64,000 nucleotides of DNA from Nitrososphaerota archaeon (lineage in GTDB: Archaea; Thermoproteota; EX4484-205; JAAOZP01). The notes under the pieces are model-generated. The model did not search any database, had not been told where the DNA came from, and worked only from the letters and a program-made list of their open reading frames with translations. Location: assembly GCA_011605725.1 (NCBI GenBank), contig JAAOZP010000012.1, forward strand, positions 74,238-138,237. Reading direction: 5' to 3'. Every line of letters starts with the position of its first letter. Position 1 is the first letter of the stretch. Positions 6,357-52,323 of the stretch are shown one piece after another. The position numbers and the translations under genes were made by a program.

Positions 6357-7469
6357 TTGCCCCCTATGGATTTGGATGAAGCTTTAAAGAGGATTTTCGA
6401 AGAAGCTGGAAAGCTTATACGCAAATGCTTGTTGAAGGCTTCAGACGGGACAACTCTTTTCAGGCCAGACGGTGGAGGAAACTATAACGCGCTCTGGACA
6501 AGAGACTTCTGCTACATGCTTGAAGGTCTTCCAAACCTTATTCCGCACGACGATGCTGTCAAAGCCTATCTCTACATACTTAACCGTCAGAGGAGGGACG
6601 GGGCTATTCCAGATAGAGTTGACCCTGATGGGAAACCATATTACAATGTTTTAGGCTCAAGCCCTCCAACTGATAATCCCCAGTTCGCTGTCAAAATAGC
6701 GTGGAAAATATGGCGTGCTTATGGAGATGTCCACCCCTTCATCCTAACTGCCGACAGGCTTGAGAAAGCCTTAAGCTCACTTCCGTTGAGCAAGGAGGCT
6801 GATTTAATCTGGATCAGCCCCGGCAGCCCGCATTCATCCTACGGTTTTACAGACTGCGTTGCTAAAACCGGTGAAGAACTTTTTTCATCACTACTCCTTT
6901 ACGAGGCGCATGTTAAAATGGCGGAGCTCTATGGTGCTGCGGGAAGAATAGAGGAGGCGAGGATGCATGAGGCTAAAGCGGTAAGAGTAAAAAGCTCGCT
7001 GGGAAAACTGTGGTCTGGGGAAGGCTATTTCTTCGCAGCCTCCGTAGACTGTAGGCAACCTGACGTATGGGGGTCAGCCTATTCCGTATGGGTAGAGGCG
7101 GTTGACAGCAGGAGAGCCCTGGAGATTTCAAAGTGGCTTTCAAACAGCTTCGAAAAGACAGTTAAATGGGGGCAGGTTAGGCATTTGCCTGAGCCCTTTG
7201 TCTGGGAGAAAACCCTCACGGAAATCAAGCCCGGCACCTATCAAAACGGGGCCTATTGGGGGACGGCAGCAGGATGGGTTGCCCACGCTATATCGCTTAC
7301 CAATCGTCAACTGGCTGAGCGAATGTTGATAGACCTGATTGAATTCTGCGAGGCAGAAGGGAAAGCGTGGGAATGTGTCAACCTGGATTACAGGAAGTGC
7401 CCGGACTACGTGGCTACTTTAGCCTGTCCCTCAGCAATAATTGAGAAGCTTAGGAATGACCGGATGTAG
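6357..7469 (+). CDS. Hypothetical protein, possible (alpha/alpha)6-barrel glycosidase-like
   Basis: 370 aa ORF; LWTRDFCYMLEG resembles the W-x-RD motif of six-hairpin glycosidases; weak assignment. Confidence 0.3.
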   Translation: MPPMDLDEALKRIFEEAGKLIRKCLLKASDGTTLFRPDGGGNYNALWTRDFCYMLEGLPNLIPHDDAVKAYLYILNRQRRDGAIPDRVDPDGKPYYNVLGSSPPTDNPQFAVKIAWKIWRAYGDVHPFILTADRLEKALSSLPLSKEADLIWISPGSPHSSYGFTDCVAKTGEELFSSLLLYEAHVKMAELYGAAGRIEEARMHEAKAVRVKSSLGKLWSGEGYFFAASVDCRQPDVWGSAYSVWVEAVDSRRALEISKWLSNSFEKTVKWGQVRHLPEPFVWEKTLTEIKPGTYQNGAYWGTAAGWVAHAISLTNRQLAERMLIDLIEFCEAEGKAWECVNLDYRKCPDYVATLACPSAIIEKLRNDRM

Positions 7470-7487
7470 ACATGGGGGCGACTATTC

Positions 7488-8561
7488 ATGGAGCCGCGTG
7501 AAAGGGTTTACAGTGTTCTTAAAGGAAGAATGCCCGACAAGATCCCTTGGCTAATATATTCAAACCATCTTCCGAGAGGAAGCTTTGAACGTAGGATGAG
7601 AGAAATGGGGCTTGGACTTGATGAAAGATGCAGCATATACAGAGTATCCATGCCGAACGTCAAGATAGAGAGCAGAACAGTGGGCGACTACGTTTACACT
7701 ATTTACCGTACTCCGGTTGGTGAGCTGAAATCAACTACACGAATCGGAATGAGGTTTCAGTTTCCAGGCGGCTCGTGGACTGTTGAGCATCCTGTGAAAA
7801 ACGCGAGCGACATCAATGCTTTAATGTTCATGATAGAGGACACGGTCTACGAGCCGGATTACGAGAACTATGTCAGGATCAGGGAAGAACTTGAGGGAGA
7901 CGGGATTGTCACTGTTTGGGCTGACTACACGCCTCTTATGAAGATAATCATCAGATACATGGGTTTCAAAAACTTTTCAATCATGTATCGGAGAAACAGG
8001 GAGGTAATTGAGGAGCTGGTGGAAGCTCTGGATAAGAGTTTTCTAAAAATGTATAGGATAATAGCCGACTCGCCTGCTGAGATAGTTAGGATCGGTGATA
8101 ACATTGACTCGATGCTCATATCTCCAAGCCTCTTCGAGAAATACTGTTTACCATACTACAATAAGTATGTTGACATTCTTCACGAGAAAGGCAAGATTGT
8201 TATTTCACATATGGACGGTAGGCTTAAAGCACTTAAAAACCTCATCGGAGAAACAAGGCTGGACGCTATAGAGGCTTTCACACCCCCGCCTGGAGGAGAC
8301 CTTTCCCCGAAGGAGGCTAGGGAAGCCTGGAGAAATAAAGTGGTTTGGATGAATTTTCCCGAGGAAGTGTTTCTGAGAACACCGGAAGAAATAAGGAGCT
8401 TCACATTAAGACTACTGGAGGAAATTGCTCCTGGAAAAGGCTTTGTAATAAGTGTTACTGAAGATGCTCATCCAGACCACTATAGAAAAGGGATTGAAAC
8501 AGTTACTGAAACACTTTACAAACACGGCGGCCTGCCGATAAAACCACCGCTAACCAGGTGA
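7488..8561 (+). CDS. Uroporphyrinogen decarboxylase (URO-D) family protein, methyltransferase-like
   Basis: 357 aa; N-terminal PRERVYSVLKGRMPDKIPW pattern and overall length typical of URO-D/MtaA-like TIM-barrel proteins. Confidence 0.5.
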   Translation: MEPRERVYSVLKGRMPDKIPWLIYSNHLPRGSFERRMREMGLGLDERCSIYRVSMPNVKIESRTVGDYVYTIYRTPVGELKSTTRIGMRFQFPGGSWTVEHPVKNASDINALMFMIEDTVYEPDYENYVRIREELEGDGIVTVWADYTPLMKIIIRYMGFKNFSIMYRRNREVIEELVEALDKSFLKMYRIIADSPAEIVRIGDNIDSMLISPSLFEKYCLPYYNKYVDILHEKGKIVISHMDGRLKALKNLIGETRLDAIEAFTPPPGGDLSPKEAREAWRNKVVWMNFPEEVFLRTPEEIRSFTLRLLEEIAPGKGFVISVTEDAHPDHYRKGIETVTETLYKHGGLPIKPPLTR

Positions 8562-8736
8562 CTAGAAGCCTAAGACTTGAAAAACTTTTTGTCAAAGCCG
8601 TTTTTAAAGCGAAGTTTGCTTGAAAAATACACCCGACTCATACGTGTCTAGCCCGGCTTACCCCTATGGGCAGAAACAGGACTACGGTAACCAAAAAGTT
8701 AAAATATTTTCAGTATTCTCGTGTGGATGAGGAGAA

Positions 8737-9492
8737 ATGGGAATAGCGTTGCAGCTCTACTCAGTACGCGAAGACTGCGCTAAGGATTTTGAGGGAACTC
8801 TTAAGGCAGTTGCAGAAATGGGTTACGAGGGGGTTGAGTTCGCAGGATATTACGAGAGAAGCGCTGAAAGCCTTAGAGCAATCCTTGACGATCTTGGTTT
8901 AAAAGTTGCTGGAACACATATAAGTATAGATACTCTGCTCGGCGAAAAGCTTGGTAAGACTGTTGAGTTTAACCGTGTCTTGGAGAACAAGTTTCTAATA
9001 GTTCCAGGCCTGCCTGCTGAAATGCTGAGTTCGAAAAAAAGTTGTCTTGAGACAGCCAATCTTTTCAACGAAATCGCTAGAAAGCTCAGGAAGGAAGGGA
9101 TGAGGGTCGGCTATCACAACCATATGATGGAGTTCAAAACTGTTAACGGTGAGAGAATATGGGACTTGTTCTTCGGCTCCACCATCCCCGAGGTAGTGAT
9201 GCAGCTCGACACGGGGAACGCGATGCATGGAGGAGTTGATGCAGAGGGCATTTTGGAGATAATTCGGAAATACCCAGGCAGGGCATTAACCGTGCACGTT
9301 AAAGAGTATTCCTCTAAAAATCCAAAGGCAGTGGTTGGAGAAGGAGAAATGAAGTGGCGTGAATTCTTCGAGCTGTGTAAAACAACGGGTGGAACCGAAT
9401 GGTATATTGTTGAGCAGGAGAGCTACGCCTATCCGCCTCTAGAATGCGTGAAGCGCTGCCTGGAGAACCTTAGAAGAATGAGGCTCGTGTAA
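8737..9492 (+). CDS. Sugar phosphate isomerase/epimerase (xylose isomerase-like TIM barrel)
   Basis: 251 aa; LQLYSVRED...GYEGVEFAGY and later HNH/E-rich metal-site pattern typical of the family. Confidence 0.7.
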   Translation: MGIALQLYSVREDCAKDFEGTLKAVAEMGYEGVEFAGYYERSAESLRAILDDLGLKVAGTHISIDTLLGEKLGKTVEFNRVLENKFLIVPGLPAEMLSSKKSCLETANLFNEIARKLRKEGMRVGYHNHMMEFKTVNGERIWDLFFGSTIPEVVMQLDTGNAMHGGVDAEGILEIIRKYPGRALTVHVKEYSSKNPKAVVGEGEMKWREFFELCKTTGGTEWYIVEQESYAYPPLECVKRCLENLRRMRLV

Positions 9493-12647: not shown

Positions 12648-13571
12648 GTGAAATGGATGAGGATGTTCAGGTTTAAGCAGGAACAGAAAATTTTTGATAT
12701 TGCCGGCGTGAAGATTGGCGGCCAGCCTGGTCAACTACCTACTGTCATGATGGGAAGCATATTCTACAGTAAACAGAAAATATTTGAGGATGAGAAGGCG
12801 GGAGTATTCTCTAAAGAGAAGGCTGAAGACTTACTGAATAAGGAGAGGGAGATATCGGACAAAACCGGTAATCCGAGGATTGTAGACGTATGCTGCACAT
12901 GGCCCCAGGCTTTTGGAAAACTCATCGAGTTCGTGGCTGACAAGATCGATGGGCCCCTAGCTATAGATGGAACCACTGAGGAGGCGAGGATTGCTGGAGC
13001 CAAGTATGTCGGCGAAGTCGGGTTGTCTGAACGCGTCGTATACAACTCGATAATGCCGCATATTAAAGAGGTGGAGATAAACGCGATTAGGGAGGCGAGG
13101 ATCAAATCCGCCGTCTTACTTACATATAACGCTAAAAACCCTACGATAACAGGAAGGATGCAGGTGCTTGACGAGCTTTTAGCATTAGCCTCGAAAGCGG
13201 GAGTTGAGAAAACACTGGTGGATACGACTGTCCTCGACATCCCTGATCCAGGACCAGTCAGCAAAGCCGTATACTTGGTGAAGGAGAAATACGGGTTGCC
13301 AGCTGGAGCGGGAACGCATAACGCAGTCCAGAGGTGGAACAAGATGCGTAGAATGGATAAAACACTTTTCTCAATCGCAAGCAGCGTAGCCGACGTGCTT
13401 CCAATATTCATGGGGGCGAACTTTGTAATATACGGGCCGATAGATAATGCCTCAAACGCGTATTTCCACTGTGCACTGGCTGACGCTTACGTAGCCTATA
13501 GCGTGCGGCAGGAGTTTGGAACAAGACCGTTAACCAGTAACCATCCATTGTTCAAAATATTCAAAACATAG
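12648..13571 (+). CDS. MtrH-family pterin methyltransferase (tetrahydromethanopterin S-methyltransferase subunit H-like)
   Basis: 307 aa; N-terminal FRFKQEQKIFDIAGVKIGGQPGQLPTVMMGSIFY resembles the conserved MtrH N-terminus; length fits. Confidence 0.6.
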   Translation: MKWMRMFRFKQEQKIFDIAGVKIGGQPGQLPTVMMGSIFYSKQKIFEDEKAGVFSKEKAEDLLNKEREISDKTGNPRIVDVCCTWPQAFGKLIEFVADKIDGPLAIDGTTEEARIAGAKYVGEVGLSERVVYNSIMPHIKEVEINAIREARIKSAVLLTYNAKNPTITGRMQVLDELLALASKAGVEKTLVDTTVLDIPDPGPVSKAVYLVKEKYGLPAGAGTHNAVQRWNKMRRMDKTLFSIASSVADVLPIFMGANFVIYGPIDNASNAYFHCALADAYVAYSVRQEFGTRPLTSNHPLFKIFKT

Positions 13572-37459: not shown

Positions 37460-37924
37460 ATGAGGGTGAAAAGGAAGCGTAAAATGGTTTTTCCCAGAAC
37501 CATGTTTGAATGCAAAGTGTGCGGGAAATGCTGCGTTGAGGATGTTAAGCGTGGTAGACGGATAGTTCTAACCGAGATTGACGCCTTAGAAATATCTAGC
37601 GCTACCGGAATAGGTTTGAACGAGTTCGCGGAGAAAAACAGTAGTGAAGCCTATCCGTACGCTATTAGGCTTGTCAACGGAAGATGCTTCTTCCTTAATC
37701 AGGACAACAAGTGCAGTATTTACCCGGTTAGACCTCTGGTGTGCAGGTTCTACCCTTTCGTAATGCATAAGATTGGAGAGACATACGTGTTTCACGCTGA
37801 CCCTTTCTGTCCAGGACTTGGGGAAGGCACTTATCTTGACGAAGAATATTTCGAAAGGCTTGTCGAGCTGGCTGAGAAGCGTTTAAAAAAGCCTACTGGG
37901 CTGTTCGAGGCGCGCCGCAGTTAG
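37460..37924 (+). CDS. YkgJ-family zinc/iron-chelating (CxxCxxCC) domain protein
   Basis: 154 aa; CKVCGKCC motif plus downstream CRFYPF and FCPG Cys motifs. Confidence 0.55.
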   Translation: MRVKRKRKMVFPRTMFECKVCGKCCVEDVKRGRRIVLTEIDALEISSATGIGLNEFAEKNSSEAYPYAIRLVNGRCFFLNQDNKCSIYPVRPLVCRFYPFVMHKIGETYVFHADPFCPGLGEGTYLDEEYFERLVELAEKRLKKPTGLFEARRS

Positions 37925-38468
37925 GGCACCTGGTCTCACTCTGCGGGAAAACAGTTCCACAATACTTGCATGAAACAGTGGATAGCACGTGCTGAATCTG
38001 GAGAGGCGGGGAAACATGTATTTCGATTGTTTTACTTGTCGCATCAGGCCGCCCTTCTACAGCAGCAACCCCCTTCAGACTCCAGGCTACGACCCTATCT
38101 AGGCTCTTGAAAGAAGGCTGGGCTCCTGGAGGTATTAGGATTTTAAACTGGTAGCTTTGGACAAAACCCTCGGGAACGTGAAGAGGCCCAGCCAACTGTG
38201 GTCTAGCTGAAAATATGACTGCAGAATCCCAGACCTGTTGCTCAACCTCCCTTTTAAGAGAAGCATTGTAAACCCTCCTGGTTCTACGTACCCGCTCAAT
38301 ACATTCAAGCTCGCACCTTATCTCCGTGCAGTCGAACTCTTCCTGAGACTCAACCTGTACTGCGCCCTCCACAGTGTCGCCAAGATAGAAGACCTGTTTA
38401 CTCAGAAACAGAGAGATGTTTACCCTGGGCGGTGTAACCTTATCCCTGAGTTTCTTAAACAGGCTCAC
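37893..38468 (-). CDS. Hypothetical protein with beta-rich N-terminal domain (possibly arrestin/Spo0M-like) and C-terminal zinc ribbon
   Basis: 191 aa; C-terminal CKYCGTVFPQSETRCPNCG zinc ribbon; 3' end overlaps the convergent YkgJ gene by 32 nt. Confidence 0.35.
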   Translation of the reverse strand: MSLFKKLRDKVTPPRVNISLFLSKQVFYLGDTVEGAVQVESQEEFDCTEIRCELECIERVRRTRRVYNASLKREVEQQVWDSAVIFSARPQLAGPLHVPEGFVQSYQFKILIPPGAQPSFKSLDRVVAWSLKGVAAVEGRPDATSKTIEIHVSPPLQIQHVLSTVSCKYCGTVFPQSETRCPNCGAPRTAQ

Positions 38469-42646: not shown

Positions 42647-43645
42647 TCAGCGAGTTATTGAAGCCCCTAGAATTTTCGGGCATAACGGATCCGGATTGCT
42701 GAATGTTCCGTAAAGCCTGTATGATCTAGCGTAACATCCCCCTCTACAAGTCTCTCTCAGAGAACAATCTGGGCAAGGGTTATTCTCGACGATTTTCCTA
42801 AGGATTCTGCTTGAACGCAGCTCCCGCCATGCTTCTGAAAGACTCTTACTCCTAACGCTTGAGACAACAATGTCAAGAGTATCGCAGAGAAGAACCTCCC
42901 CTCCTGGACCTATATCCATGTTTTTCTCAATCCTGCACGAGTCCCATGAAACATAGTGGGATCTCACTATGAGGCTGGCGAACGGCATACACCACAGTAT
43001 GATGTTGAAACCAAGCCTATCCGCAGCCTCATCAGCCAAGCGTAGAGCTTTAACGCAAGAGTAGGCGTCAGCATTCCAATCCTTGTCCGCCGCCCTTCCG
43101 AAAGGCATTACGGGAAGCAGTACTGCAGAGGAGGCTCCAAGTTTCTCCGCCAGTTGCACAAACCCTCCGGCTTCACTGGCATTCAGGCGGGAAATCGAAA
43201 AGATAGGTGTGAAACTAACCCCCTCCTCCTTGAGAACCCTTATGTTCCGCATCAAAACATCCCACGTTCCTGGGCCGCGCACAGCCTCATGCGTATTCTT
43301 AACTGCGCCGTCAATGCTTGTGAAAACGCGGATACCCTGCGAACCTAGCCTCCTTGCCTTCTCCCGGCTTATTGCGGAAAGATTTGTGAAAAGAGAAACG
43401 TTTACACCTTCTTCCGCGGCCGCAAGTATTTCGAAAATACCCTCCCTTAAAAGAGGCTCGCCACCCGTTAAATGAAGGTTTTTAACACCCATTTCACAAG
43501 CCTCCTCAACCAGTTTTAAAACCCGGTTCTTGCTTAGTTCACCACTCCAAGAGCGGGAGGAAACATAGCAATGTTCGCATCTAAAGTTGCACCTTGCCGT
43601 AAGCAGCCATGTCACGTAATCTGGGGGGCTTGGAATCGGACTCAT
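42647..43645 (-). CDS. Radical SAM protein with C-terminal SPASM-like Cys cluster
   Basis: 332 aa; CNFRCEHCY (CxxxCxxC) near N-terminus; C-terminal CPDCSLRETCRGGC auxiliary-cluster motif. Confidence 0.8.
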   Translation of the reverse strand: MSPIPSPPDYVTWLLTARCNFRCEHCYVSSRSWSGELSKNRVLKLVEEACEMGVKNLHLTGGEPLLREGIFEILAAAEEGVNVSLFTNLSAISREKARRLGSQGIRVFTSIDGAVKNTHEAVRGPGTWDVLMRNIRVLKEEGVSFTPIFSISRLNASEAGGFVQLAEKLGASSAVLLPVMPFGRAADKDWNADAYSCVKALRLADEAADRLGFNIILWCMPFASLIVRSHYVSWDSCRIEKNMDIGPGGEVLLCDTLDIVVSSVRSKSLSEAWRELRSSRILRKIVENNPCPDCSLRETCRGGCYARSYRLYGTFSNPDPLCPKILGASITR

Positions 43646-44838: not shown

Positions 44839-45903
44839 TTAAGCATCGCATTCACCATAATAATTCATGAGGCTTTCGAAAGCCGTGCAAACCGCGTCTA
44901 TGTTTTCAAGCGGAACATCTGCATGAATCTCTGAATACATCATTAATCCTCCTTTCTCAGAACCGAGCTTGACAACAGCCTCATGAATGTGGCTCCTGAT
45001 TTCCTCAGGATTGCCGAAGGGGACAAGGAGTTGACGGTCTATATCCAGGTCGATGCAAACCCTCCCCTTGATCTCCTCTCTAATATTGTCTAGCCCGTTA
45101 ACCCGGTCCTGAATATTTAAGACTGAAACACCCGCTTCCATAAGGGCATCAGCCACCTCCATTATGTGGCCGTCAGTATGCAGGTAAACCCTTATCCCTG
45201 AATCCCTGACTCTCCCGAATATTTTCCTGTATGAAGGATAGATAAACCTTCTGAACGTCTTAGGGCTTATTGGCATCCTGTCTTGAAGACCAAGATCGTC
45301 CCCGAAGGAAACCATGTCAACCCTGAGCCTGATGAATCTTTCAACAAGAGCAAGATTATACTCGGTCAACATCTCTATTAGTTTTTCAAGCTGACTAGTG
45401 TTTCTCACGAAGTCCATCATCAGGTTTTCAAATCCTCTCAGATAATAGAGCCTTTGGAAGAAGAAGCCGTGAGGCATACTTCCGACAATAACATCATCCA
45501 TTTTCCTAGCATTTTCTATTCTCTCCTCAATCGCATCCCACGGGTCTAACCCACCACCCTCCTGAACAATGCCTTTCTCCGGATCGGGTAGACTATAGTG
45601 CGCAAAGTCAGACCAATCCTTCAAAGGGTGCTTCACAACCTGACCCTGCAACCCGCTTATGTTAAACCTCCATAAGCATCCGAAGTCATCCAAAACCTCT
45701 CTACCCTTCAACCTGCTTCCGAAGTTGTTAAAGTCGACACTTCCCTTCTTGAACGTTGGGAAAAGCCTAGGATGCCTAGCGAGCAGGTCCTCAAGCTTAT
45801 CCCTATACTTGCTCCAAGTCGTTGGGAAAATTCCCACTCTACAAGGGATCCACCCGCAACCATTCATGTCTATGACTCTAAGCTTTTTCACTCTGATGCT
45901 CAA
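44839..45903 (-). CDS. URO-D family protein (uroporphyrinogen decarboxylase-like, putative methyltransferase)
   Basis: 354 aa; C-terminal half (YLHTDGHIMEV...) follows the URO-D TIM-barrel pattern. Confidence 0.5.
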   Translation of the reverse strand: MSIRVKKLRVIDMNGCGWIPCRVGIFPTTWSKYRDKLEDLLARHPRLFPTFKKGSVDFNNFGSRLKGREVLDDFGCLWRFNISGLQGQVVKHPLKDWSDFAHYSLPDPEKGIVQEGGGLDPWDAIEERIENARKMDDVIVGSMPHGFFFQRLYYLRGFENLMMDFVRNTSQLEKLIEMLTEYNLALVERFIRLRVDMVSFGDDLGLQDRMPISPKTFRRFIYPSYRKIFGRVRDSGIRVYLHTDGHIMEVADALMEAGVSVLNIQDRVNGLDNIREEIKGRVCIDLDIDRQLLVPFGNPEEIRSHIHEAVVKLGSEKGGLMMYSEIHADVPLENIDAVCTAFESLMNYYGECDA

Positions 45904-46012
45904 ATCGAAGGGTATGCTTCCCCCGCTAAGCTTTAAACATTTCTCGTTTAAAGCTGGAGCCTAAATCATAAGATTTAAAAGATTTAAGTATTATTGAGGA
46001 AAGCGAGGGAAA

Positions 46013-47122
46013 GTGTCAAGGAACCCGAATATAGGTAGACTGCTTAAAGTCCTTCTGAGAGAGGGAGAGCCGGATAGAGTACCTTTCTACGAGCATTTCG
46101 TCGATAACGAGGTTATTGAAGCCTTGACAGGTAAGCCTGTATCTAAGGCTTTAGCTGAAGAAGGCTTGAGCTCAGAGAAATACCTTAACACCTTGATTGA
46201 GTTCTATTCTAGGCTCGGGTACGACTATGTTCCGATGGAGGTTTCTCCTAAACTCCCCAGGACTAATGTTCTTCAGACGAACGATGTCGCTTATCTTTCC
46301 CGTGGGAAAAGAACCTGGCAGGATGAGAACAAGGGGACGATTGAAACAATTGAGGATTTTGAAAAATACCCCTGGCCCAGTCCAGATGAAGCACTGGATT
46401 TTTCAGTGTTTGAAAGACTGAGGAGAAAACTGCCTGAAGGCATGGGGGTTGTTGGGGGAGTCGCCGGAGGATTCTTCGAGCATGTGAGCTGGCTGATGGG
46501 CATTGGAAAACTCTGCAGGGCCGTGTACTTGGACAAGAGGCTTGTTGAAAAAATGTTCAGCAAAATCGCCATGCTAATAATTTCCCTAGACGAGAGGATA
46601 GTTAAGGAAGGGTATGTTGATGCCTTGAGGATGGGTGACGACTTAGGGTATAAGACGGGCACGTTTCTGCCGCCCAGAATCCTACGGGAATACGTTTTCC
46701 CAAACTACAGGAGGCTCGCCGACTTGGCGCATTCGAAAGGACTTCCATTTATAATTCATTCCTGCGGAAACCTGTATACTCCTGACGAAACAGGGAGAAC
46801 AGTGATGGATGATCTTGTGAACAGTGTTAGGATAGATGCTAAACATTCTTTTGAAGACAATATAATGCCAGTATACGAGGTTAAGGAGAAGTATGGGAAT
46901 AAGGTAGCGGTGCTGGGCGGTGTAGACATGAATAAGCTTGTTCAACTTCCTGAGAAAAGCCTGAGGGAGTACGTCAGGCTAATAATTAAGAAGTGCGCAC
47001 CAGGAGGCGCATATGCTTTAGGCTCTGGAAACACGATAGCCAACTATGTGCCCTTAGAAAACTATCTCGCGATGCTCGACGAAGGTTTTAGAAGCGGAGT
47101 ATATCCGATAAGGATTAGTTGA
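46013..47122 (+). CDS. URO-D family protein (uroporphyrinogen decarboxylase-like, putative methyltransferase)
   Basis: 369 aa; IIHSCGNLYTP and downstream pattern typical of URO-D/MtaA-like proteins. Confidence 0.55.
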   Translation: MSRNPNIGRLLKVLLREGEPDRVPFYEHFVDNEVIEALTGKPVSKALAEEGLSSEKYLNTLIEFYSRLGYDYVPMEVSPKLPRTNVLQTNDVAYLSRGKRTWQDENKGTIETIEDFEKYPWPSPDEALDFSVFERLRRKLPEGMGVVGGVAGGFFEHVSWLMGIGKLCRAVYLDKRLVEKMFSKIAMLIISLDERIVKEGYVDALRMGDDLGYKTGTFLPPRILREYVFPNYRRLADLAHSKGLPFIIHSCGNLYTPDETGRTVMDDLVNSVRIDAKHSFEDNIMPVYEVKEKYGNKVAVLGGVDMNKLVQLPEKSLREYVRLIIKKCAPGGAYALGSGNTIANYVPLENYLAMLDEGFRSGVYPIRIS

Positions 47123-47133
47123 GAAACAGGTTT

Positions 47134-48300
47134 TCAACACGCGTCAGGCTTAATCCTGTCTAAATGTTTGAAGCGCTCTCTCCTTATCGGATACCTTCCA
47201 ACCTTTTTAGCGTATTCAACCTCATACTTCAAGCGTTCAGGAGGCACTTTGGCATATGTCTCACCGCCATTGTCGAAAACATAGCCGCCGCCGGGTGCAG
47301 CATGAAAAATGCATTTCTCAACCTCAAGCTCAATGCTTTCAAAAGATCCGTCTACTAGAACCCTCCAGTCAGCGTTGCCGTTGAAGAACACTTTCCCCTT
47401 AAACGCTTCACTAATTGTTTTAATATTGTTCTCAACACCTACATCAGCCTCCTTTATCCTGTAAACGTTTACAAGTATGTCTGTTATGTGATCCATGTGT
47501 GAATCCATGTGTAAATACCGGTGGTTGGCGCCGTGCCGCTCGTAAAGCCGAAGGTTATAAGGCATCGCGAACTCCTCGTACATCCTCCTATTCAAGTAGC
47601 CTGAATGATCGTCAGCCAAGCCTAGGCTTCCTGGCCCCGACCCGGAAAGCTCATAATAGTATTCTTGGAGAACGTTGAAAGCCTCCTCCAGTTTTCGGAA
47701 AAGCCTATGCATTTCACTAGGATTCTCATAGAGCCACCGATATAGTTTTCCCGGGCCCAGTAGAGAGCCGGCTGCTGAAACCGGCGGATGTATCTGGAGC
47801 CGGCCTTCGACAGGAAGACCATCATAGTTTTTACGAACAAGCTCCCTGAACTTTTCAAGCTTCTCATAGTAGGCTTGAACCCCTTTGTGGCGATGCGGGT
47901 CCGGAACCTCCAGCTTATCAATATCCTCAAGAGTCTTAATGCGGGGAATTATCCATGGGCTGAGCCAAGGGTTTCTCTCATCAGGCATTTCAATCTTGCA
48001 GTCGAAAACAATGCCTTCAGATACGGCTCCAAGGTCTAGATGCACCCCTATACTTGTTAAATCATCTTCAAGCCATTTCAGCCTCCATTTCAATCCTTTC
48101 ACTTGAGCATCCAGCATTATACTCGTATCGTTATAGTATTCGGCGAAAGTATAGCCAAAAAGCATCGCGTAATATGGTCCTCCCAGCCCTATGATAACCG
48201 GAACCCTATCAGGCTCCTTAAACTGAGCAGCTTTCTCAACGCGCTTCCTATTCTCCTCCAGGAGACTCGAATACTTGGCTTTGTTGAAAGGCTCCATCAA
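47134..48300 (-). CDS. URO-D family protein (uroporphyrinogen decarboxylase-like, putative methyltransferase)
   Basis: 388 aa; C-terminal LHMDSHMDHITD...AAPGGGYVFDNG pattern typical of the family. Confidence 0.5.
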   Translation of the reverse strand: MMEPFNKAKYSSLLEENRKRVEKAAQFKEPDRVPVIIGLGGPYYAMLFGYTFAEYYNDTSIMLDAQVKGLKWRLKWLEDDLTSIGVHLDLGAVSEGIVFDCKIEMPDERNPWLSPWIIPRIKTLEDIDKLEVPDPHRHKGVQAYYEKLEKFRELVRKNYDGLPVEGRLQIHPPVSAAGSLLGPGKLYRWLYENPSEMHRLFRKLEEAFNVLQEYYYELSGSGPGSLGLADDHSGYLNRRMYEEFAMPYNLRLYERHGANHRYLHMDSHMDHITDILVNVYRIKEADVGVENNIKTISEAFKGKVFFNGNADWRVLVDGSFESIELEVEKCIFHAAPGGGYVFDNGGETYAKVPPERLKYEVEYAKKVGRYPIRRERFKHLDRIKPDAC

Positions 48301-48433: not shown

Positions 48434-50392
48434 ATGAAGGATAGGGTCTTCCCAGTTTTCAAGAAACCCGGGAAGCTCAGGGTACTTGACGTCCGGCCGT
48501 ATTCTTGGCATGAACAGATGACAATAACCTGCGCGCAAGGATTGATAAACCGTGTGAAGCCAAGGGTTTACCTAGTGTTCGACGATTATGTTGACAGACT
48601 ATGGCTGTCAATCTACGGGAAAAGATACGGAGTGAAGCATGAGGAGGTTAACAATATTTACGAGCTACTGTCATCCTTTAGAAGGGAAATAGCAGGGTTC
48701 GTGGTTTACGATGAGAACATGCTGCATTCTGCAAACGTAGCAATGACGTATGGAAGCATCCATAATGCGGTTCCAGCGTCCCCAGGGGTTGCGGAAAAGC
48801 TTTCGGAAGCAGGCTTCAGGAAGATAGCTGATTTCAGAGGCAAATGGGGAAATAGGATTGAAGCCTACGAATGGGCTTTTCAAAACCTGATGCAGCAGTG
48901 CAATAAAAGGATTGTTGGAAGCATGTGTGTAGACCCTCCTTTAACATCATTCACGAATAAGCATCATGTTAGAGACTATCTCGTTGCAGTGAAAGCATTC
49001 TCCTTCGACCTCTCCACTAAGATTAGGGACCGCCGTGAAGTAGAATTGTTCGACAGGATACTTAGCTCTTTCGACTCGCTAGGAGTGGTTTTAGGATGGC
49101 ACTGCATCAGGGACCTTGAGTCGGAGGCTGTTGCAAGAGCATCTGCAAACGGCTTCTTCGTGCTTTGCAACCTGCATTCTCCAAACCTGACTGTCCACTC
49201 AGGCGTGAAGACCAGTTTCAAGTTTAAACAGAGGCATGTTAAGAAAGTAATGCTGGAGGAAAAGGTTTACGTGGCCTTCATACAGTCTGATGGAGACGCT
49301 GTTTGGGCAATGAACAATTTTCAAAACCTTAACTGGCTTGACAGCCAGAGGGGAAGATTCCCCTACACATGGGAGATTCAACCCTTGCTGCTGGACCTAG
49401 CACCCGGGATTCTGGAACACTATTACAGGACTGCGACTTTAAACGATTATTTTATAGCTGGACCTTCGGGAGCAGGCTATACTGCACCCAGTGTTAACAA
49501 GCGTCTTGACGAGTTCCTTGAGCACACTAAGAGGTATATGGAGGCATGTGATTTAAGGTCAATATTAATCATGAACCGTAACCCCCGGGTGGCCTACCAG
49601 GAGCTTGAAGACCCTAAGGTTTCTGAGGCTTTTGCTAAAAAGCTTGAAAACTGTTACGGGTTTCTGCATGGCTACTCAGGATCGGCTTTCGAGCCAGCGT
49701 TCTTCTTTAACAGTAAGCCGTATTTTCACACAACGCTCTACGCCTCCGCTTCAACAGATATTTTGAAAGAGCTGAAGCGGCTTGTGGAAGACTGCGAAAC
49801 ACGACCATTATTCGTCTCAATCCACGTTAGAGAAGAGGTTAAAATGCCAGTCTTACGCAGCGTGATAGAGAAGCTTGACAGTGAAACATATAGGGTTGTG
49901 AAAATGGATGAGTTCATGCTTACCTTGAAAAAGGCTTATGAAAAAGGCCTGTTTAAACAGGGCTTTTCAGAATCAGCCAGGGAATCTCTTAGGGAAAACG
50001 GTAAAACAATTTGGGAAACATACCACCGAAGAGTTGAACGCTTGGAGAGGCTTGTCGAAATGGATGAGCAAAGAATGCTGGCGGAGTACAACTCGGACGG
50101 ATACGGTTTCACCGTAGAGGAGTTGCCGGATCTTCTGGCTTACGATGCGGTTGAGATAGCACTACGGCTTGTTCAGGCAGCGTTAAACATGAAGGGTGTT
50201 TACGTGAATAATGTTGAGAAGAGCGTTAAGGACTTTCTGAAGGAGTATAGCGAGCTTCCAGGCGCCCAGATTGTTGAAACAGTTTTCGAAACCTGGAGGA
50301 ACTGGGAGAGAACCAGGAGTAGCATGGAGGAAGCAAGGACACTGGCGAGAAGAGTAGTTGGGTTTGCGAAGGCTCTTGAGGAGAAAATTTAG
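48434..50392 (+). CDS. GxGYxYP-like putative glycoside hydrolase with C-terminal helical extension
   Basis: 652 aa; contains AGPSGAGYTAP, close to the family-defining GxGYxYP motif; weak assignment. Confidence 0.4.
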   Translation: MKDRVFPVFKKPGKLRVLDVRPYSWHEQMTITCAQGLINRVKPRVYLVFDDYVDRLWLSIYGKRYGVKHEEVNNIYELLSSFRREIAGFVVYDENMLHSANVAMTYGSIHNAVPASPGVAEKLSEAGFRKIADFRGKWGNRIEAYEWAFQNLMQQCNKRIVGSMCVDPPLTSFTNKHHVRDYLVAVKAFSFDLSTKIRDRREVELFDRILSSFDSLGVVLGWHCIRDLESEAVARASANGFFVLCNLHSPNLTVHSGVKTSFKFKQRHVKKVMLEEKVYVAFIQSDGDAVWAMNNFQNLNWLDSQRGRFPYTWEIQPLLLDLAPGILEHYYRTATLNDYFIAGPSGAGYTAPSVNKRLDEFLEHTKRYMEACDLRSILIMNRNPRVAYQELEDPKVSEAFAKKLENCYGFLHGYSGSAFEPAFFFNSKPYFHTTLYASASTDILKELKRLVEDCETRPLFVSIHVREEVKMPVLRSVIEKLDSETYRVVKMDEFMLTLKKAYEKGLFKQGFSESARESLRENGKTIWETYHRRVERLERLVEMDEQRMLAEYNSDGYGFTVEELPDLLAYDAVEIALRLVQAALNMKGVYVNNVEKSVKDFLKEYSELPGAQIVETVFETWRNWERTRSSMEEARTLARRVVGFAKALEEKI

Positions 50393-50397
50393 AAGCT

Positions 50398-50781
50398 TCA
50401 GCATGCTAGAAGCAAAGCGATAGCTATCGCAACGTCACTCGTCCTATCATGGCTTAAGCTGATTAAAACTCTTCTAGCACCCTTCTCGCGGAGAAGATTG
50501 AGAAGCGGTTCACTCATAACTATTCTGACCTCCGAGTTGACCGTTTCAGTCTCAACACCCCTCCACCCTAGCCGGCTTCTGCTAGCATGACCTATGGCTT
50601 TGAAAACCGCCTCTTTGGCTGCAAACCTTGCGGCTAGCTTCTCGTAGGGACAGCCCGATTGAAAACAGTATTCAATCTCCCTATCTGTGAAAACCCTTTT
50701 TAGAAAACGTTCACCGCCCTTCTCTATAGCCTTCTTAACCCTGTTTATCGAAACAGCATCAACGCCAACCCCGGTTATCAA
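50398..50781 (-). CDS. acpS: Holo-[acyl-carrier-protein] synthase (4'-phosphopantetheinyl transferase)
   Basis: 127 aa; MITGVGVDAVSINRV...KEAVFKAIG pattern typical of AcpS. Confidence 0.7.
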   Translation of the reverse strand: MITGVGVDAVSINRVKKAIEKGGERFLKRVFTDREIEYCFQSGCPYEKLAARFAAKEAVFKAIGHASRSRLGWRGVETETVNSEVRIVMSEPLLNLLREKGARRVLISLSHDRTSDVAIAIALLLAC

Positions 50782-50795
50782 GCCTATCTGAAAGT

Positions 50796-51041
50796 TCAGC
50801 AGCCTGCTTGAGCCAGCTTCCTCTTTATGTATTCAACAACCTGACCCACTGTCTGGTTTTTCTCAGCCTCCTCCTCAGGAATCTCCAGGTTGAAAGCCTC
50901 TTCGAAGGCTGCGATCAGCTCAACAGTATCTATTGACTCAGCCATAAGGTCGTCCACGAGAGAAGTGTCGTCCTTCAAGCTTTCAACACTAACACGGAAG
51001 TGTTCAGCTATAATCTTCTTAACCTTCTCCTCAACCGACAT
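50796..51041 (-). CDS. Acyl carrier protein
   Basis: 81 aa acidic four-helix protein; phosphopantetheine-attachment context DDLMAESIDTVEL. Confidence 0.65.
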   Translation of the reverse strand: MSVEEKVKKIIAEHFRVSVESLKDDTSLVDDLMAESIDTVELIAAFEEAFNLEIPEEEAEKNQTVGQVVEYIKRKLAQAGC

Positions 51042-51042
51042 T

Positions 51043-52323
51043 CTACATACCTCCTCGCTCCATTCTCATCTCCGCCTTCCTTATTAAAGTTTCCCTCTCC
51101 TCTCTAGTGTCCTGATATATTTTCTCAAGCATCCTGACGTAGCTCTCCGACATTACGACAGACCTTCTCGACATGACTCTCTTCTCCGCTTCAACAGTCC
51201 TTCTGAAGCCAGCACCCCTTCTCAACCTTCCTTCAGCATACCAAGAGAAGCTTGGAATATACTTGGGAAGAACCTCCCCGCCTAGGAGGACGCATGCTAC
51301 TCCGACAACGGTTCCAGTGTTCAGCAGGCAACCTATGCCGAACTTCGTATGGTCTCCTATGAAGCTGCCAACCTTCAGGTCACCAGTATCCATTAACCTA
51401 CCTTTCACGTAGACGTCGACATTACTGTAATCATTCTTAAGATCACTATTAGTAGTCAGGGCGCCGATGTTAACCCATTCACCAACGTAAGCATGGCCCA
51501 GGAAACCAGTGTGATACTTGTTAGAATAACCGTGGATGATGCTTGCCTCAACCTCTCCCCCAACCCTGCAGACAGGCCCTATCGTTGTCTCCTCCCTTAT
51601 GTTTCCACGGACAATCCAAGTATTCCTCCCAATGTAGCAGGGTCCTTCGACACGGCTGAACGGATATATGCGTGCATCCTCGTCAACTATTATTGGGCCG
51701 GAGCTAGTGTCTAGAACAACGAAAGGATGTATAACTGCATTTTTACTAACGTGAAGCATACTCTTTTCTCCGACGACAGCAACCTTCTCGTCTAAGGATC
51801 CAGCCCCCTCCTGCTTAGACCAGTATGCTTCAAAATCCTCCTTCAGCATTTCGTGATTATACTGGATAAGGTGCCACGGGTATTCTACCATCCGGGCGTC
51901 AACCTGCTTAACGCTCAGCTCAGACCTAAGATTCTCAACAGTCTTCTGAAAAGTATCTGAAAGTTTTCTTCTAACTGTTTCCCTCTTGACGTGAATATAT
52001 ACTATATCATCCTTGCACATCGCGATGACCTCGTCTTTCTCAAACGGGAGATGGCCGTGCTCAGGAAGCCACCTACCGTTAACCAGAATAGCATCATCCC
52101 TACTCAGATCCTGAAGGCTGTTCACAACAACGTCTCCAAGCCTTTCTCTCAGAACAGGAGCCAAATAGTCCCTTAGGAAGAAAGAGGTCTCGACACCGGG
52201 ATGAGTCCTCCTGATTCTTTCAACAAGCGTCATCGACCCGCATCTCAGCTCGAAAGTAGCTCTTGTAAGCGTCAACGGGTAGAGAAGGTCATACTTCTCA
52301 TCCTCGAACACGCAGACCTTCAA
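51043..52323 (-). CDS. Left-handed beta-helix (hexapeptide-repeat) protein with nucleotidyltransferase-like N-terminal domain
   Basis: 426 aa; N-terminus MKVCVFEDEKYDLLYPLT resembles sugar-nucleotidyltransferase-like domains; central region has hexapeptide-like repeats. Confidence 0.5.
   Translation of the reverse strand: MKVCVFEDEKYDLLYPLTLTRATFELRCGSMTLVERIRRTHPGVETSFFLRDYLAPVLRERLGDVVVNSLQDLSRDDAILVNGRWLPEHGHLPFEKDEVIAMCKDDIVYIHVKRETVRRKLSDTFQKTVENLRSELSVKQVDARMVEYPWHLIQYNHEMLKEDFEAYWSKQEGAGSLDEKVAVVGEKSMLHVSKNAVIHPFVVLDTSSGPIIVDEDARIYPFSRVEGPCYIGRNTWIVRGNIREETTIGPVCRVGGEVEASIIHGYSNKYHTGFLGHAYVGEWVNIGALTTNSDLKNDYSNVDVYVKGRLMDTGDLKVGSFIGDHTKFGIGCLLNTGTVVGVACVLLGGEVLPKYIPSFSWYAEGRLRRGAGFRRTVEAEKRVMSRRSVVMSESYVRMLEKIYQDTREERETLIRKAEMRMERGGM

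What the first reader, a model, noticed from the sequence alone, without database searches (positions are those of the whole stretch)
44839..48300. Three adjacent URO-D-family paralogs, with a fourth at 7488-8561
Seen: three 354-388 aa ORFs in alternating orientation, each with URO-D-like C-terminal barrel motifs. Established: this family includes methylcobamide:CoM and O-demethylase-type methyltransferases as well as true uroporphyrinogen decarboxylase. Inference: the paralog expansion next to a THF island suggests substrate-specific methyltransferases, but the Zn-ligand motifs and the missing corrinoid partner need checking.
Basis: partly seen in the sequence, partly recalled or inferred. 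Interest (0 to 1): 0.5.

Follow-up and report, generated by a model that had tools for sequence, protein, structure and literature searches.

The report
Four divergent URO-D-family enzyme genes
Four real but very dissimilar genes of the uroporphyrinogen-decarboxylase/MtaA enzyme superfamily lie among sugar-degradation genes of a Brockarchaeota-like archaeon; none is a haem enzyme, one looks like a vitamin-B12-dependent methyltransferase, and the chemistry of the other three is still open.

Summary
ORFs 44839-45903(-), 46013-47122(+), 47134-48300(-) and 7488-8561(+) all match Pfam URO-D (E 1e-18 to 2e-30). They share only 20-24% identity and represent four separate, uncharacterised clades. None is HemE: the Arg-Arg and His residues are absent, and TIGR01464 scores 19-35 bits (P1, P3, P4; P2 gives no match) against a cut-off of 303. 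None is an MtaA/MtbA orthologue.

Only the middle gene (P2) keeps His-x-Cys. Its clade is the only one repeatedly found beside a corrinoid protein, a RACo activase or an MtrH-type methyltransferase (8 of 80 species-level loci, scattered across its tree). Its best structural match is MtaA.

P1, P3 and P4 carry an invariant His-x-Asp. P1 and P3 also have acidic His/Asp pockets. The P1 and P3 clades lie next to glycoside hydrolases, Gfo/Idh/MocA and xylose-isomerase-like genes, and almost never beside corrinoid proteins.

The window has no corrinoid protein. The THF island lies next to P4, about 27 kb from the trio, and contains an MtrH/MtgA-family methyl-corrinoid:THF methyltransferase.

Verdict: the methyltransferase reading is partly supported. 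It is likely for P2 and open for the other three. All loci that contain a corrinoid protein are also carbohydrate loci, which leaves corrinoid-dependent demethylation of methylated sugars as an untested possibility.

The parts
44839..45903 (-). P1: URO-D-superfamily protein of a His-x-Asp clade (public gene call 44839-45891, 350 aa)
46013..47122 (+). P2: URO-D-superfamily protein of a His-x-Cys clade; probable corrinoid-dependent methyltransferase
   Evidence: Pfam URO-D 67.6 bits. The clade has 3440 homologues in archaea and bacteria. Invariant residues: H249-S-C251, D275, H278, D209/D210, E156. MtaA (4ay7) is the only PDB sequence hit, with HSCGN aligned to HICGN, and it is the best Foldseek hit. 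Clade members lie beside a corrinoid protein, RACo or MtrH in 8 of 80 loci.
47134..48300 (-). P3: URO-D-superfamily protein of a His-x-Asp clade that is closest in sequence to HemE but lacks its catalytic residues
   Evidence: Pfam URO-D 106.2 bits over the full length. 191 homologues, nearly all Thermoproteota. Invariant residues: H171, D230/D231/H232, H264-x-D266, H271, D286, E347. The clade profile hits HemE at 5.5e-16 and CdmB at 6e-10. HemE R27, R31, Y154 and H327 are not conserved.
7488..8561 (+). P4: fourth URO-D-superfamily protein, a loosely conserved His-x-Asp clade
   Evidence: Pfam URO-D 65.4 bits. 229 representative clusters at E<=1e-30. Only T75, G78, H241 and D243 are invariant. 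It starts 19 bp after ORF 6357-7469 and is followed by a xylose-isomerase-like TIM-barrel gene.
12648..13571 (+). MtrH/MtgA-family protein: candidate methyl-corrinoid:tetrahydrofolate methyltransferase (MT2) inside the THF island
   Evidence: Pfam MtrH 293.5 bits. NCBIfam NF002142 scores 298.9 bits against a cut-off of 287, and there is a full-length MtgA match of 268 bits. Homologues MtoA and D. hafniense MtrH transfer methyl from a corrinoid protein to H4F/H4MPT (PMC8630106).
10721..18072 (.). THF island: FTHFS, MtrH-like, PurN, FolD, 5-FTHF cyclo-ligase fused to an ECF-S-like domain, FolC-like ligase
   Evidence: Pfam hits.
48434..50392 (+). GxGYxYP-family putative glycoside hydrolase, transcribed divergently from P3 across a 133-bp spacer
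   Evidence: All four GxGYxYP Pfam domains are matched, E 1.7e-46. The gene is syntenic in close relatives.
6357..9492 (+). P4 neighbourhood: unknown 370-aa ORF (6357-7469), P4, and a xylose-isomerase-like TIM-barrel protein (8737-9492)
   Evidence: AP_endonuc_2 at 1.1e-17. ORF 6357-7469 has no Pfam family, and its weak PDB/NCBIfam hits (glucoamylase-like) are not significant.

Best explanation
The four ORFs are functional genes for four anciently diverged, uncharacterised clades of the URO-D/MtaA TIM-barrel superfamily in a Brockarchaeota-like archaeon. None decarboxylates uroporphyrinogen. P2 (46013-47122) is most likely a metal-dependent (probably zinc; His249, Cys251, His278), corrinoid-dependent methyltransferase. 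It would exchange a methyl group with a corrinoid protein encoded elsewhere in the genome. By analogy with a Kosmotogaceae operon (P2-type, corrinoid protein, RACo, canonical MtaA-like), it is probably the substrate-side enzyme (MT1). The MtrH/MtgA-like protein in the THF island would then pass the methyl group to tetrahydrofolate. P1, P3 and P4 have replaced the Cys by Asp; P1 and P3 also have an acidic, His-rich pocket, and their clades travel with glycoside hydrolases and sugar oxidoreductases. I tentatively place all three in the same scheme, as substrate-specific partners that act on sugar-derived compounds, for example by removing methyl ethers. Shown: the fold, the motifs, the gene neighbourhoods and the corrinoid linkage of the P2 clade. 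Inferred: the metal, the direction of methyl transfer, the substrates, and any corrinoid dependence of P1, P3 and P4.
For: Superfamily membership and fold. Not HemE or MtaA orthologues. P2 motif HSCGN aligns with MtaA HICGN; H249/C251, H278 and D209/D210 sit at strand C-termini in a pLDDT 94.5 model. In 80 species-level P2-clade loci, a corrinoid protein with DxHxxG occurs in L017, L036, L037, L050 and L056. A RACo activase (confirmed by Pfam RACo domains) occurs in L017, L036, L037, L071 and L083. An MtrH-like gene occurs in L022. Six of these lie within 1.3 kb of the P2-type gene, against 0 of 80 for the P3 control set (Fisher p=0.03). The linked members are scattered across the P2 tree, including close relatives of the window's copy (L017 59%, L022 54% identity). 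L037 reads P2-type, corrinoid protein, RACo, canonical HxC...C MtaA-like. L036 has two His-x-Asp paralogues 65 and 308 bp from the corrinoid protein. All five loci with a corrinoid protein also carry sugar genes: GH38, AXE1, GH13, SBP_bac_1 ABC transporter, DUF2961, PfkB. An MT2 of the MtrH/MtgA family lies in the window's THF island (PMC8630106). Hot-spring Brockarchaeota are reported to encode MtaB with corrinoid proteins and to lack a recognised MT2 (PMC8065059). URO-D-fold MT1 enzymes need not bind zinc (CdmB, PMC13222342).
Against: No corrinoid protein, RACo or B12-binding domain is present in the 64-kb window (six-frame search). About 90% of P2-clade loci show no corrinoid gene within 8 kb, and immediate neighbours are very heterogeneous (141 Pfam families among 138 proteins). 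The statistics are modest (p=0.03 for tight adjacency, p=0.10 for any linkage). P2 has Asn where MtaA has its second zinc Cys, and the invariant C328 lies at the bottom of the barrel in the model. For P1 there is no corrinoid gene in 5 independent contexts (8 loci fetched). For P3 there are only 2 of 80, both 6.5 kb away and paired with a different CdmB-like gene. P4 contexts could not be examined. The His-x-Asp paralogues beside the corrinoid protein in L036 are not orthologues of P1, P3 or P4 (HMM scores <=170 bits). Strongly acidic pockets are unlike the aromatic pocket described for the MT1 CdmB (PMC13222342) or the thiolate-zinc site of MtaA. From my own knowledge, corrinoid-dependent cleavage of alkyl (sugar) methyl ethers has no precedent.
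Confidence: 0.45

Rival explanations
1. Only P2 is a corrinoid methyltransferase. P1, P3 and P4 are not methyltransferases. They are metal-dependent (His/Asp/Glu site) enzymes of glycan catabolism, for example a decarboxylase, isomerase/epimerase, dehydratase or hydrolase. They would act on sugars or keto-sugars produced by the neighbouring Gfo/Idh/MocA and xylose-isomerase-like enzymes.
For: His-x-Asp is invariant, with clusters of invariant Asp, His, Arg, Gln and Asn at strand ends. P1 contexts: AKR, Gfo/Idh/MocA and URO-D in an operon next to GH29; also GH78, GH1, GH42-like, GH4, GH38/GH36. P3 contexts: GH2 adjacent in 5-8 loci, plus GH127, GHL6, GH3, GH116, GxGYxYP, AP_endonuc_2 (9 loci) and Gfo/Idh/MocA (8 loci). 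Corrinoid genes are essentially absent from these contexts. The superfamily already includes a cofactor-free decarboxylase (HemE), and P3 is closest in sequence to HemE.
Against: From my own knowledge, no PF01208 member is known to act on carbohydrates. Every characterised member other than HemE is a corrinoid methyltransferase (listed in PMC10418091, and PMC13222342). His-x-Asp paralogues do flank a corrinoid protein in L036. No single neighbour is conserved across the clades, so the sugar link is associative. No specific reaction can be derived.
Confidence: 0.35
2. One or more copies are MtaA/MtbA-type MT2 enzymes (methylcobamide:thiol methyltransferases). They would supply the 'missing MtaA' of the Brockarchaeota methanol and trimethylamine systems.
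For: MtaA is the nearest solved structure for P1 and P2. P2 keeps His-x-Cys. mtaA genes are typically unlinked from mtaBC in methanogens (own knowledge). Brockarchaeota are reported to lack MtaA (PMC8065059).
Against: NCBIfam MtaA, MtbA and MtaA/CmuA models score 18-51 bits against cut-offs of 235-600. Identity to MtaA is 16-19%. The second zinc Cys is absent in all four. Brockarchaeota are described as non-methanogenic methylotrophs whose methyl groups are proposed to go to tetrahydrofolate rather than coenzyme M (PMC8065059). A better MT2 candidate, the MtrH/MtgA-family gene, sits in the THF island. In L037 a canonical MtaA-like gene coexists with the P2-type gene, so the two are not equivalent.
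Confidence: 0.08
3. One of the copies, most plausibly P3, is the organism's true uroporphyrinogen decarboxylase (HemE).
For: The P3 clade profile hits HemE structures at 5.5e-16, and hhalign gives 98% probability over residues 115-366. An AhbD/NirJ-like radical-SAM gene lies 1.2 kb from P1.
Against: TIGR01464 scores 34.5 bits against a cut-off of 303. The N-terminal 114 residues, which in HemE carry the RQAGR arginines, do not align. HemE R27, R31, Y154 and H327 are replaced (gap, Pro, Ser, Gly) throughout the clade. The radical-SAM match is far below its cut-off (139 against 500). No other tetrapyrrole genes are in the window, and the neighbours are glycoside hydrolases.
Confidence: 0.02

Closest known systems
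MtaA / MtbA / MtsA, soluble methylcobamide:coenzyme M methyltransferases (PF01208; M. mazei MtaA, PDB 4AY7)
   Different: Identity is 16-19%, and the HMM scores are 5-10 times below family cut-offs. The second zinc Cys is Asn in P2 and absent in the others. P1, P3 and P4 have His-x-Asp. The host is described as non-methanogenic, with methyl groups proposed to go to THF rather than coenzyme M. The genes are embedded in sugar-catabolic rather than methanogenic contexts.
URO-D-fold MT1 enzymes of acetogens and archaea: CdmB (PDB 9RUI), OdmB, VdmB, MtvB, MtoB
   Same: Same fold. These are substrate-specific paralogue families that hand methyl to a corrinoid protein, and zinc is not obligatory. P3 and P1 give weak but real sequence matches to CdmB (6e-10 and 1e-3).
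   Different: CdmB has Ser-x-Gln at the motif position and an aromatic, metal-free pocket. The window proteins have His-x-Asp or His-x-Cys, and P1 and P3 have polar, acidic pockets. Known MT1 genes are clustered with their corrinoid protein, which is not the case here. Known substrates are aryl methyl ethers or halomethanes.
HemE / UROD, uroporphyrinogen III decarboxylase
   Same: Same fold and Pfam family. P3 aligns over about 250 C-terminal residues. The superfamily-wide Asp (E. coli D77) and the Asp after strand 5 are kept.
   Different: The Arg-Arg motif, Tyr154 and His327 are not conserved. HemE has Phe-x-Lys where these proteins have His-x-Asp or His-x-Cys. The window contains no haem-pathway genes.
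Type 1 mlp gene clusters (MtaA-like proteins with corrinoid protein and activase; Kountz and Balskus, PMC10418091)
   Same: Several URO-D-family paralogues cluster together with a corrinoid protein and an activase in non-methanogens, as in loci L036 and L037.
   Different: Mlps are defined by more than 25% identity to a characterised coenzyme M methyltransferase and are linked to methyl-sulfur and methyl-selenide metabolism. The clades here are more remote, and their loci carry sugar transporters and glycoside hydrolases.
Cobalamin-independent methionine synthase MetE and short 'core-MetE' proteins
   Same: Same UROD/MetE-like barrel superfamily. The metal ligands lie on strands 6, 7 and 8 (His-x-Cys, Glu, Cys). 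P2 has ligand candidates on strands 6 and 7 in the same topology.

Membership tests
Pfam PF01208 URO-D superfamily | Score above the gathering threshold of 23.9 bits | tested here: met
   71.3, 67.6, 106.2 and 65.4 bits for P1 to P4.
Pfam PF01208 URO-D superfamily | URO-D-type (beta/alpha)8 barrel fold | tested here: met
HemE (uroporphyrinogen decarboxylase) | Equivalog HMM TIGR01464 at or above 302.95 bits | tested here: not met
   19.3, 34.5 and 19.3 bits for P1, P3 and P4; no hit at E<=0.01 for P2.
HemE (uroporphyrinogen decarboxylase) | Substrate-binding and catalytic residues (E. coli R27, R31, D77, Y154, H327; human R37, R41, D86, Y164, H339) | tested here: not met
   R27 and R31 are a gap or Asp/Glu/Pro/Gly. 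H327 becomes a gap, Asn, Gly or Glu. Y154 is kept only in P1. Only the Asp is retained. The N-terminal alignment is of low reliability.
MtaA/MtbA soluble coenzyme M methyltransferases (MT2) | NCBIfam MtaA_Meth, MtbA or mtaA_cmuA models above cut-off (235-600 bits) | tested here: not met
   Best scores are 18-51 bits.
MtaA/MtbA soluble coenzyme M methyltransferases (MT2) | Zinc motif His-x-Cys ... Cys | tested here: not met
   P2 has His-Ser-Cys, but Asn340 aligns with the second Cys of MtaA. P1, P3 and P4 have His-x-Asp and no aligned Cys.
MtaA/MtbA soluble coenzyme M methyltransferases (MT2) | Methyl transfer from a methyl-corrinoid protein to coenzyme M | not testable with these tools
   Needs an enzyme assay. 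Brockarchaeota are described as non-methanogenic methylotrophs that transfer methyl groups to THF rather than coenzyme M (PMC8065059).
Corrinoid-dependent methyltransferase systems (MT1, CP, MT2, AE) in general | Genomic association with a B12-binding corrinoid protein and/or a RACo/RamA activase | tested here: inconclusive
   None in the window. P2 clade: 8 of 80 loci, 6 within 1.3 kb. P3 clade: 2 of 80, not adjacent. P1 clade: none in 5 independent contexts (8 loci fetched). P4 clade: not examined.
Corrinoid-dependent methyltransferase systems (MT1, CP, MT2, AE) in general | Presence of a methyl acceptor-side enzyme (MT2) for THF or H4MPT in the genome | tested here: met
   The MtrH/MtgA-family gene at 12648-13571 scores NF002142 298.9 against a cut-off of 287.
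URO-D-fold MT1 (CdmB/OdmB/MtvB/MtoB type) | Sequence relationship to characterised MT1 enzymes | tested here: inconclusive
   Profile against CdmB (9rui): P3 6e-10, P1 1e-3, P2 and P4 no hit at <=0.01. The motif position differs (Ser-x-Gln in CdmB). No OdmB, MtvB or MtoB sequences were available for comparison.

The most novel reading that the evidence does not exclude
The URO-D paralogues are the substrate-specific arms of a corrinoid-dependent system that strips methyl ethers from methylated sugars or glycan fragments released by the neighbouring glycoside hydrolases. The P2-type and the His-x-Asp types would both belong to it. The methyl group would pass through a shared corrinoid protein to the MtrH/MtgA-like enzyme and into the THF pathway. 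This would be an anaerobic counterpart of the P450 sugar demethylases. It would also add a new methyl source for non-methanogenic methylotrophy in Brockarchaeota, Bathyarchaeia and several bacterial phyla.
Probability: 0.2. Interest if true: 0.8.

Novelty: new variant of a known kind. Interest (0 to 1): 0.5.

Why it matters
PF01208 proteins outside HemE are routinely annotated 'uroporphyrinogen decarboxylase' or over-read as MtaA. This analysis shows that at least four large clades, each with hundreds to thousands of members in Thermoproteota and many bacterial phyla, fit neither label. Three of them carry an invariant His-x-Asp signature that has no characterised representative. Their steady association with glycoside hydrolases is not explained by current knowledge of the superfamily. 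In five loci that association is joined by a corrinoid protein (three of them also a RACo activase). If the methyltransferase reading is right, it points to an unrecognised anaerobic route for removing methyl groups from carbohydrates. Together with the MtrH/MtgA-like gene in the THF island, it would also fill the 'undescribed methyltransferase' gap left open in the published Brockarchaeota methylotrophy model. If it is wrong, the His-x-Asp clades are a new catalytic function in a well-studied fold. Either result can be tested with recombinant protein.

Tried and rejected
1. HemE identity: rejected on HMM scores and missing catalytic residues.

2. MtaA/MtbA orthology: rejected on HMM scores and an incomplete or absent zinc motif.

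3. Identity with the Bathyarchaeia-specific O-demethylase MtgB (PMC10989822): that protein is about 300 aa and described as having no homology to known MT1 enzymes. It cannot be equated with these PF01208 proteins, and no sequence was available for comparison.

4. Type 1 Mlp clusters (PMC10418091): the definition requires more than 25% identity to a coenzyme M methyltransferase, which is not met.

5. A conserved operon for the trio: the order P1-P2-P3 is kept only in close relatives (85-91% identity: L010-L014, L092-L094; plus L091, a 99%-identical copy of the same region). Beyond that only occasional pairs recur: P3+P1 in L003/L120 and L100, P2+P1-like in L057.

6. Neighbour clustering by BLAST gave almost no conserved neighbour family for P2 or P3. 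Pfam censuses were equally diffuse.

7. C328 of P2 as the missing third zinc ligand: in the model it lies at the helix end below strand 8, on the wrong face of the barrel.

8. Literature searches for URO-D-family proteins in polysaccharide loci or for corrinoid-dependent sugar demethylation found nothing relevant. That library is incomplete.

9. Exact-sequence look-up of P4 failed, and the afdb50 fold library was unavailable. P3 and P4 were not modelled, and P4 contexts elsewhere were not seen.


Full report
**1. Observation**

The four ORFs are present exactly as described: 44839-45903(-), 46013-47122(+), 47134-48300(-) and 7488-8561(+). I call them P1 to P4.

- Each passes the Pfam URO-D (PF01208) gathering score: 71, 68, 106 and 65 bits, E 1e-18 to 2e-30.
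- Public gene calls on an essentially identical metagenome contig (ENA ERZ27247226 k141_166733, 296 kb) give 350, 369 and 387 aa for the trio.
- The four share only 20-24% identity. They are four old lineages, not a recent local duplication.
- The genes alternate in orientation. P1 and P2 diverge from a 110-bp spacer, P2 and P3 converge 11 bp apart, and P3 diverges from a GxGYxYP glycoside hydrolase gene.

**2. Organism and window**

- Homologues of all three trio genes come from Thermoproteota, Bathyarchaeia and Thermofilaceae MAGs.
- The same P1-P2-P3 arrangement occurs at 87-91% identity in five species-level genomes. One is Candidatus Brockarchaeota archaeon DRTY-6.bins.80 (L014).
- The window encodes a fermentative sugar degrader: GH127, a GxGYxYP hydrolase, FGGY kinases, Gfo/Idh/MocA, xylose-isomerase-like barrels, Ack/Pta and ADP-forming acetyl-CoA synthetase.
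- The THF island runs from 10721 to about 18072. It holds FTHFS, an MtrH-like gene, PurN, FolD, 5-FTHF cyclo-ligase and a FolC-like ligase. It begins 2.2 kb after P4 but lies about 27 kb from the trio.

**3. What the proteins are not**

- HemE: the equivalog model scores 19-35 bits for P1, P3 and P4 against a cut-off of 303, and gives no match for P2 at E<=0.01.
- MtaA, MtbA and MtaA/CmuA models score 18-51 bits against cut-offs of 235-600.
- P3 is the most HemE-like. Its clade profile hits HemE structures at 5.5e-16, and hhalign gives 98% probability, but only over residues 115-366.
- The HemE residues R27, R31, Y154 and H327 (E. coli numbering) are replaced throughout the P3 clade. All four proteins lack the RQAGR arginines.
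- Clade profiles against the PDB are otherwise remote. P2 hits only MtaA (2.8e-4). P1 hits MtaA (1.3e-4) and CdmB (1e-3). P4 hits only a 77-residue C-terminal stretch of HemE.

**4. Active-site signatures**

I aligned 31-35 diverse homologues per clade (alignments A2-A5).

- P2 has an invariant H249-S-C251, aligned residue for residue with the His-x-Cys of MtaA. It also has invariant D275, H278, D209/D210 and E156. Where MtaA has its second zinc cysteine, P2 has a near-invariant Asn340.
- In the AlphaFold model of P2 (pLDDT 94.5), H249/C251, H278 and D209/D210 lie at the C-terminal ends of strands 6, 7 and 5. The invariant C328 lies below strand 8 and is probably not a ligand.
- P1, P3 and P4 have an invariant His-x-Asp at the same position.
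- In the P1 model (pLDDT 95.5), H141, D198/D199, H238/D240, Q261/D262 and D283/D285 line the catalytic face.
- P3 similarly conserves H171, D230/D231/H232, H264/D266, H271, D286 and E347.
- Across 228 URO-D ORFs in the fetched loci, 121 are His-x-Asp and 94 are His-x-Cys. HemE has Phe-x-Lys and CdmB has Ser-x-Gln.

**5. The corrinoid partner**

I searched six-frame translations with the E. coli MetH B12 domain, and with HMMs built from the hits.

*The window*
- The window contains no corrinoid protein and no activase.

*The P2 clade (80 species-level loci)*
- A DxHxxG corrinoid protein is present in L017, L036, L037, L050 and L056.
- A RACo-type activase is present in L017, L036, L037, L071 and L083. 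Pfam RACo domains confirm this.
- An MtrH-like gene is present in L022.
- Six of these genes lie within 1.3 kb of the P2-type gene.
- The linked members are scattered over the whole P2 tree. They come from Kosmotogaceae, Chloroflexota, Poribacteria, Hadarchaeota and Bathyarchaeia, and include near relatives of the window's copy.

*The P3 clade (80 loci, used as a control)*
- Tight adjacency occurs in 0 of 80 loci (p=0.03).
- A corrinoid protein appears in two near-identical loci, 6.5 kb away, beside a 410-aa CdmB-like gene.

*The P1 clade*
- Five independent contexts (8 loci fetched) contain no corrinoid gene.

*Two informative loci*
- L037 reads P2-type, corrinoid protein, RACo, then a canonical MtaA-like gene with both cysteines. 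This suggests the P2-type enzyme is the donor-side (MT1) component there.
- L036 has a P2-type gene followed by a His-x-Asp paralogue, the corrinoid protein, a small ORF and a second His-x-Asp paralogue. His-x-Asp enzymes can therefore sit in corrinoid operons, although these two are not orthologues of P1, P3 or P4.

**6. The carbohydrate link**

- P1-clade genes follow aldo-keto reductase and Gfo/Idh/MocA next to a GH29 fucosidase. Others lie beside GH78, GH1, GH42-like, GH4, or GH38/GH36 genes.
- P3-clade genes abut GH2 beta-galactosidases (5-8 loci) and isochorismatase-like genes (8 loci). They recur with AP_endonuc_2 (9 loci) and Gfo/Idh/MocA (8 loci). They also lie near GH127, GHL6, GH3 and GH116 genes.
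- In the window, P3 is paired with a GxGYxYP hydrolase and P4 with a xylose-isomerase-like barrel.
- Every P2-clade locus that contains a corrinoid protein is also a sugar locus:
  - L056: GHMP kinase, corrinoid protein, acetyl-xylan esterase, GH38, P2.
  - L037: a sugar ABC transporter and GH13.
  - L036: an SBP_bac_1 ABC transporter.
  - L050: DUF2961.
  - L017: a PfkB kinase.
- No single neighbour is conserved. The link is a statistical association, not an operon.

**7. Interpretation**

*Established background*
- Apart from HemE, every characterised PF01208 enzyme is a corrinoid methyltransferase. This covers both thiol-methylating MT2 and ether- or halide-cleaving MT1 (PMC10418091; PMC13222342).
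- Zinc is not obligatory, as CdmB shows.
- MtrH-family proteins outside the Mtr complex act as methyl-corrinoid:H4F/H4MPT methyltransferases (MtoA, MtgA; PMC8630106).
- The window's MtrH-like protein passes the NCBIfam subfamily cut-off and matches MtgA over its full length.
- Brockarchaeota are reported to have MtaB plus corrinoid proteins, and an 'undescribed' enzyme for transfer to THF (PMC8065059).

*Assignments*
- P2 is a probable corrinoid-dependent methyltransferase, at about 0.6.
- For P1, P3 and P4 the evidence is split. The superfamily prior and locus L036 favour methyltransferases. The missing corrinoid linkage and the acidic, sugar-like pockets favour a different, possibly new, metal-dependent reaction on carbohydrates. 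I put corrinoid dependence for these three at roughly 0.3-0.4.

**8. Novelty**

These are uncharacterised clades of a known superfamily with an altered signature and an unexpected genomic setting. I call this a new variant of a known kind. The most novel reading that the evidence does not exclude is corrinoid-dependent demethylation of methylated sugars feeding THF. I found no description of this in the searchable literature, and that library is incomplete.

**9. Limits**

- Only P1 and P2 were modelled, and coordinates could not be inspected.
- P4 contexts outside the window were not obtained.
- The rest of the source genome could not be searched for corrinoid proteins.
- Reference MT1 sequences other than a CdmB fragment were unavailable.
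- The neighbour-joining tree and my crude ORF calling are only indicative.

Noticed in passing
window 12648-13571 (+): An MtrH/MtgA-family gene lies between FTHFS and PurN/FolD (NF002142 298.9 bits against a cut-off of 287; full-length MtgA match). It is an obvious candidate for the 'undescribed' corrinoid-to-THF methyltransferase that the Brockarchaeota paper (PMC8065059) left open. That paper's main text never mentions MtrH.
   Followed up: partly
window 57713-58669 (-): A short MetE-like (Meth_synt_2) protein keeps an intact zinc motif (SIHVCG ... LSLEF ... HPDCG). It lies between an FGGY sugar kinase and an NAD-epimerase gene on the same strand, next to GH127. It is a fifth UROD/MetE-superfamily gene in a sugar setting. 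The methionine-synthase HMM is below cut-off (164 against 258).
   Followed up: partly
window 50398-52323 (-): A 4'-phosphopantetheinyl transferase (ACPS), an acyl-carrier-type PP-binding protein (81 aa) and a sugar nucleotidyltransferase/hexapeptide protein lie in a row. Carrier-protein systems are unusual in archaea.
   Followed up: no
window 15371-16759 (+): 5-formyl-THF cyclo-ligase is fused to a C-terminal ECF-transporter S-component-like membrane domain. It is followed on the opposite strand by a FolC-like Mur-ligase gene.
   Followed up: no
window 45929-45955: A perfect 10-bp inverted repeat, AGCTTTAAAC-N7-GTTTAAAGCT, lies in the 110-bp divergent spacer between P1 and P2. It overlaps TTTAAA box-like sequences and could be an operator or simply paired promoters.
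   Followed up: no
window 42647-43645 (-): A radical-SAM/SPASM protein has its best NCBIfam similarities to AhbD (haem b synthase) and NirJ2, far below cut-off (139 against 500 bits). A reader could be tempted to link it to the URO-D genes through tetrapyrrole metabolism, but nothing supports that.
   Followed up: partly
window 30095-31249, 34975-36813, 37893-38468 (-): Three unusual genes lie close together: an SPFH/Band-7 protein with four zinc ribbons, a 612-aa P-loop (AAA_22/NACHT-like) protein, and a small Arrestin_N-like protein with a zinc ribbon. This is an odd cluster for an archaeon.
   Followed up: no
L036:10958-11254, L057:1435-1725, L080:7248-7535, L043:439-888: A small ORF (96-98 aa in L036, L057 and L080; 150 aa as called in L043) with no Pfam family overlaps or directly follows P2-type URO-D genes, or the corrinoid protein in L036, in four distant lineages. 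It may be an accessory subunit. The window has no counterpart.
   Followed up: no
L126:11441-13356 and L136:14558-16427: These metagenome contigs (unnamed; fetched as P3-clade relatives) carry a 410-aa CdmB-like URO-D gene (Phe-x-Glu at the motif position) directly beside a corrinoid protein. This looks like a bacterial-type MT1/CP pair, 6.5 kb from a P3-clade gene.
   Followed up: partly
L008:11121-11999 and L009:7362-8240: A DUF2099 (PF09872) gene directly follows a P1-clade gene in two Bathyarchaeia MAGs. Its function is unknown.
   Followed up: no
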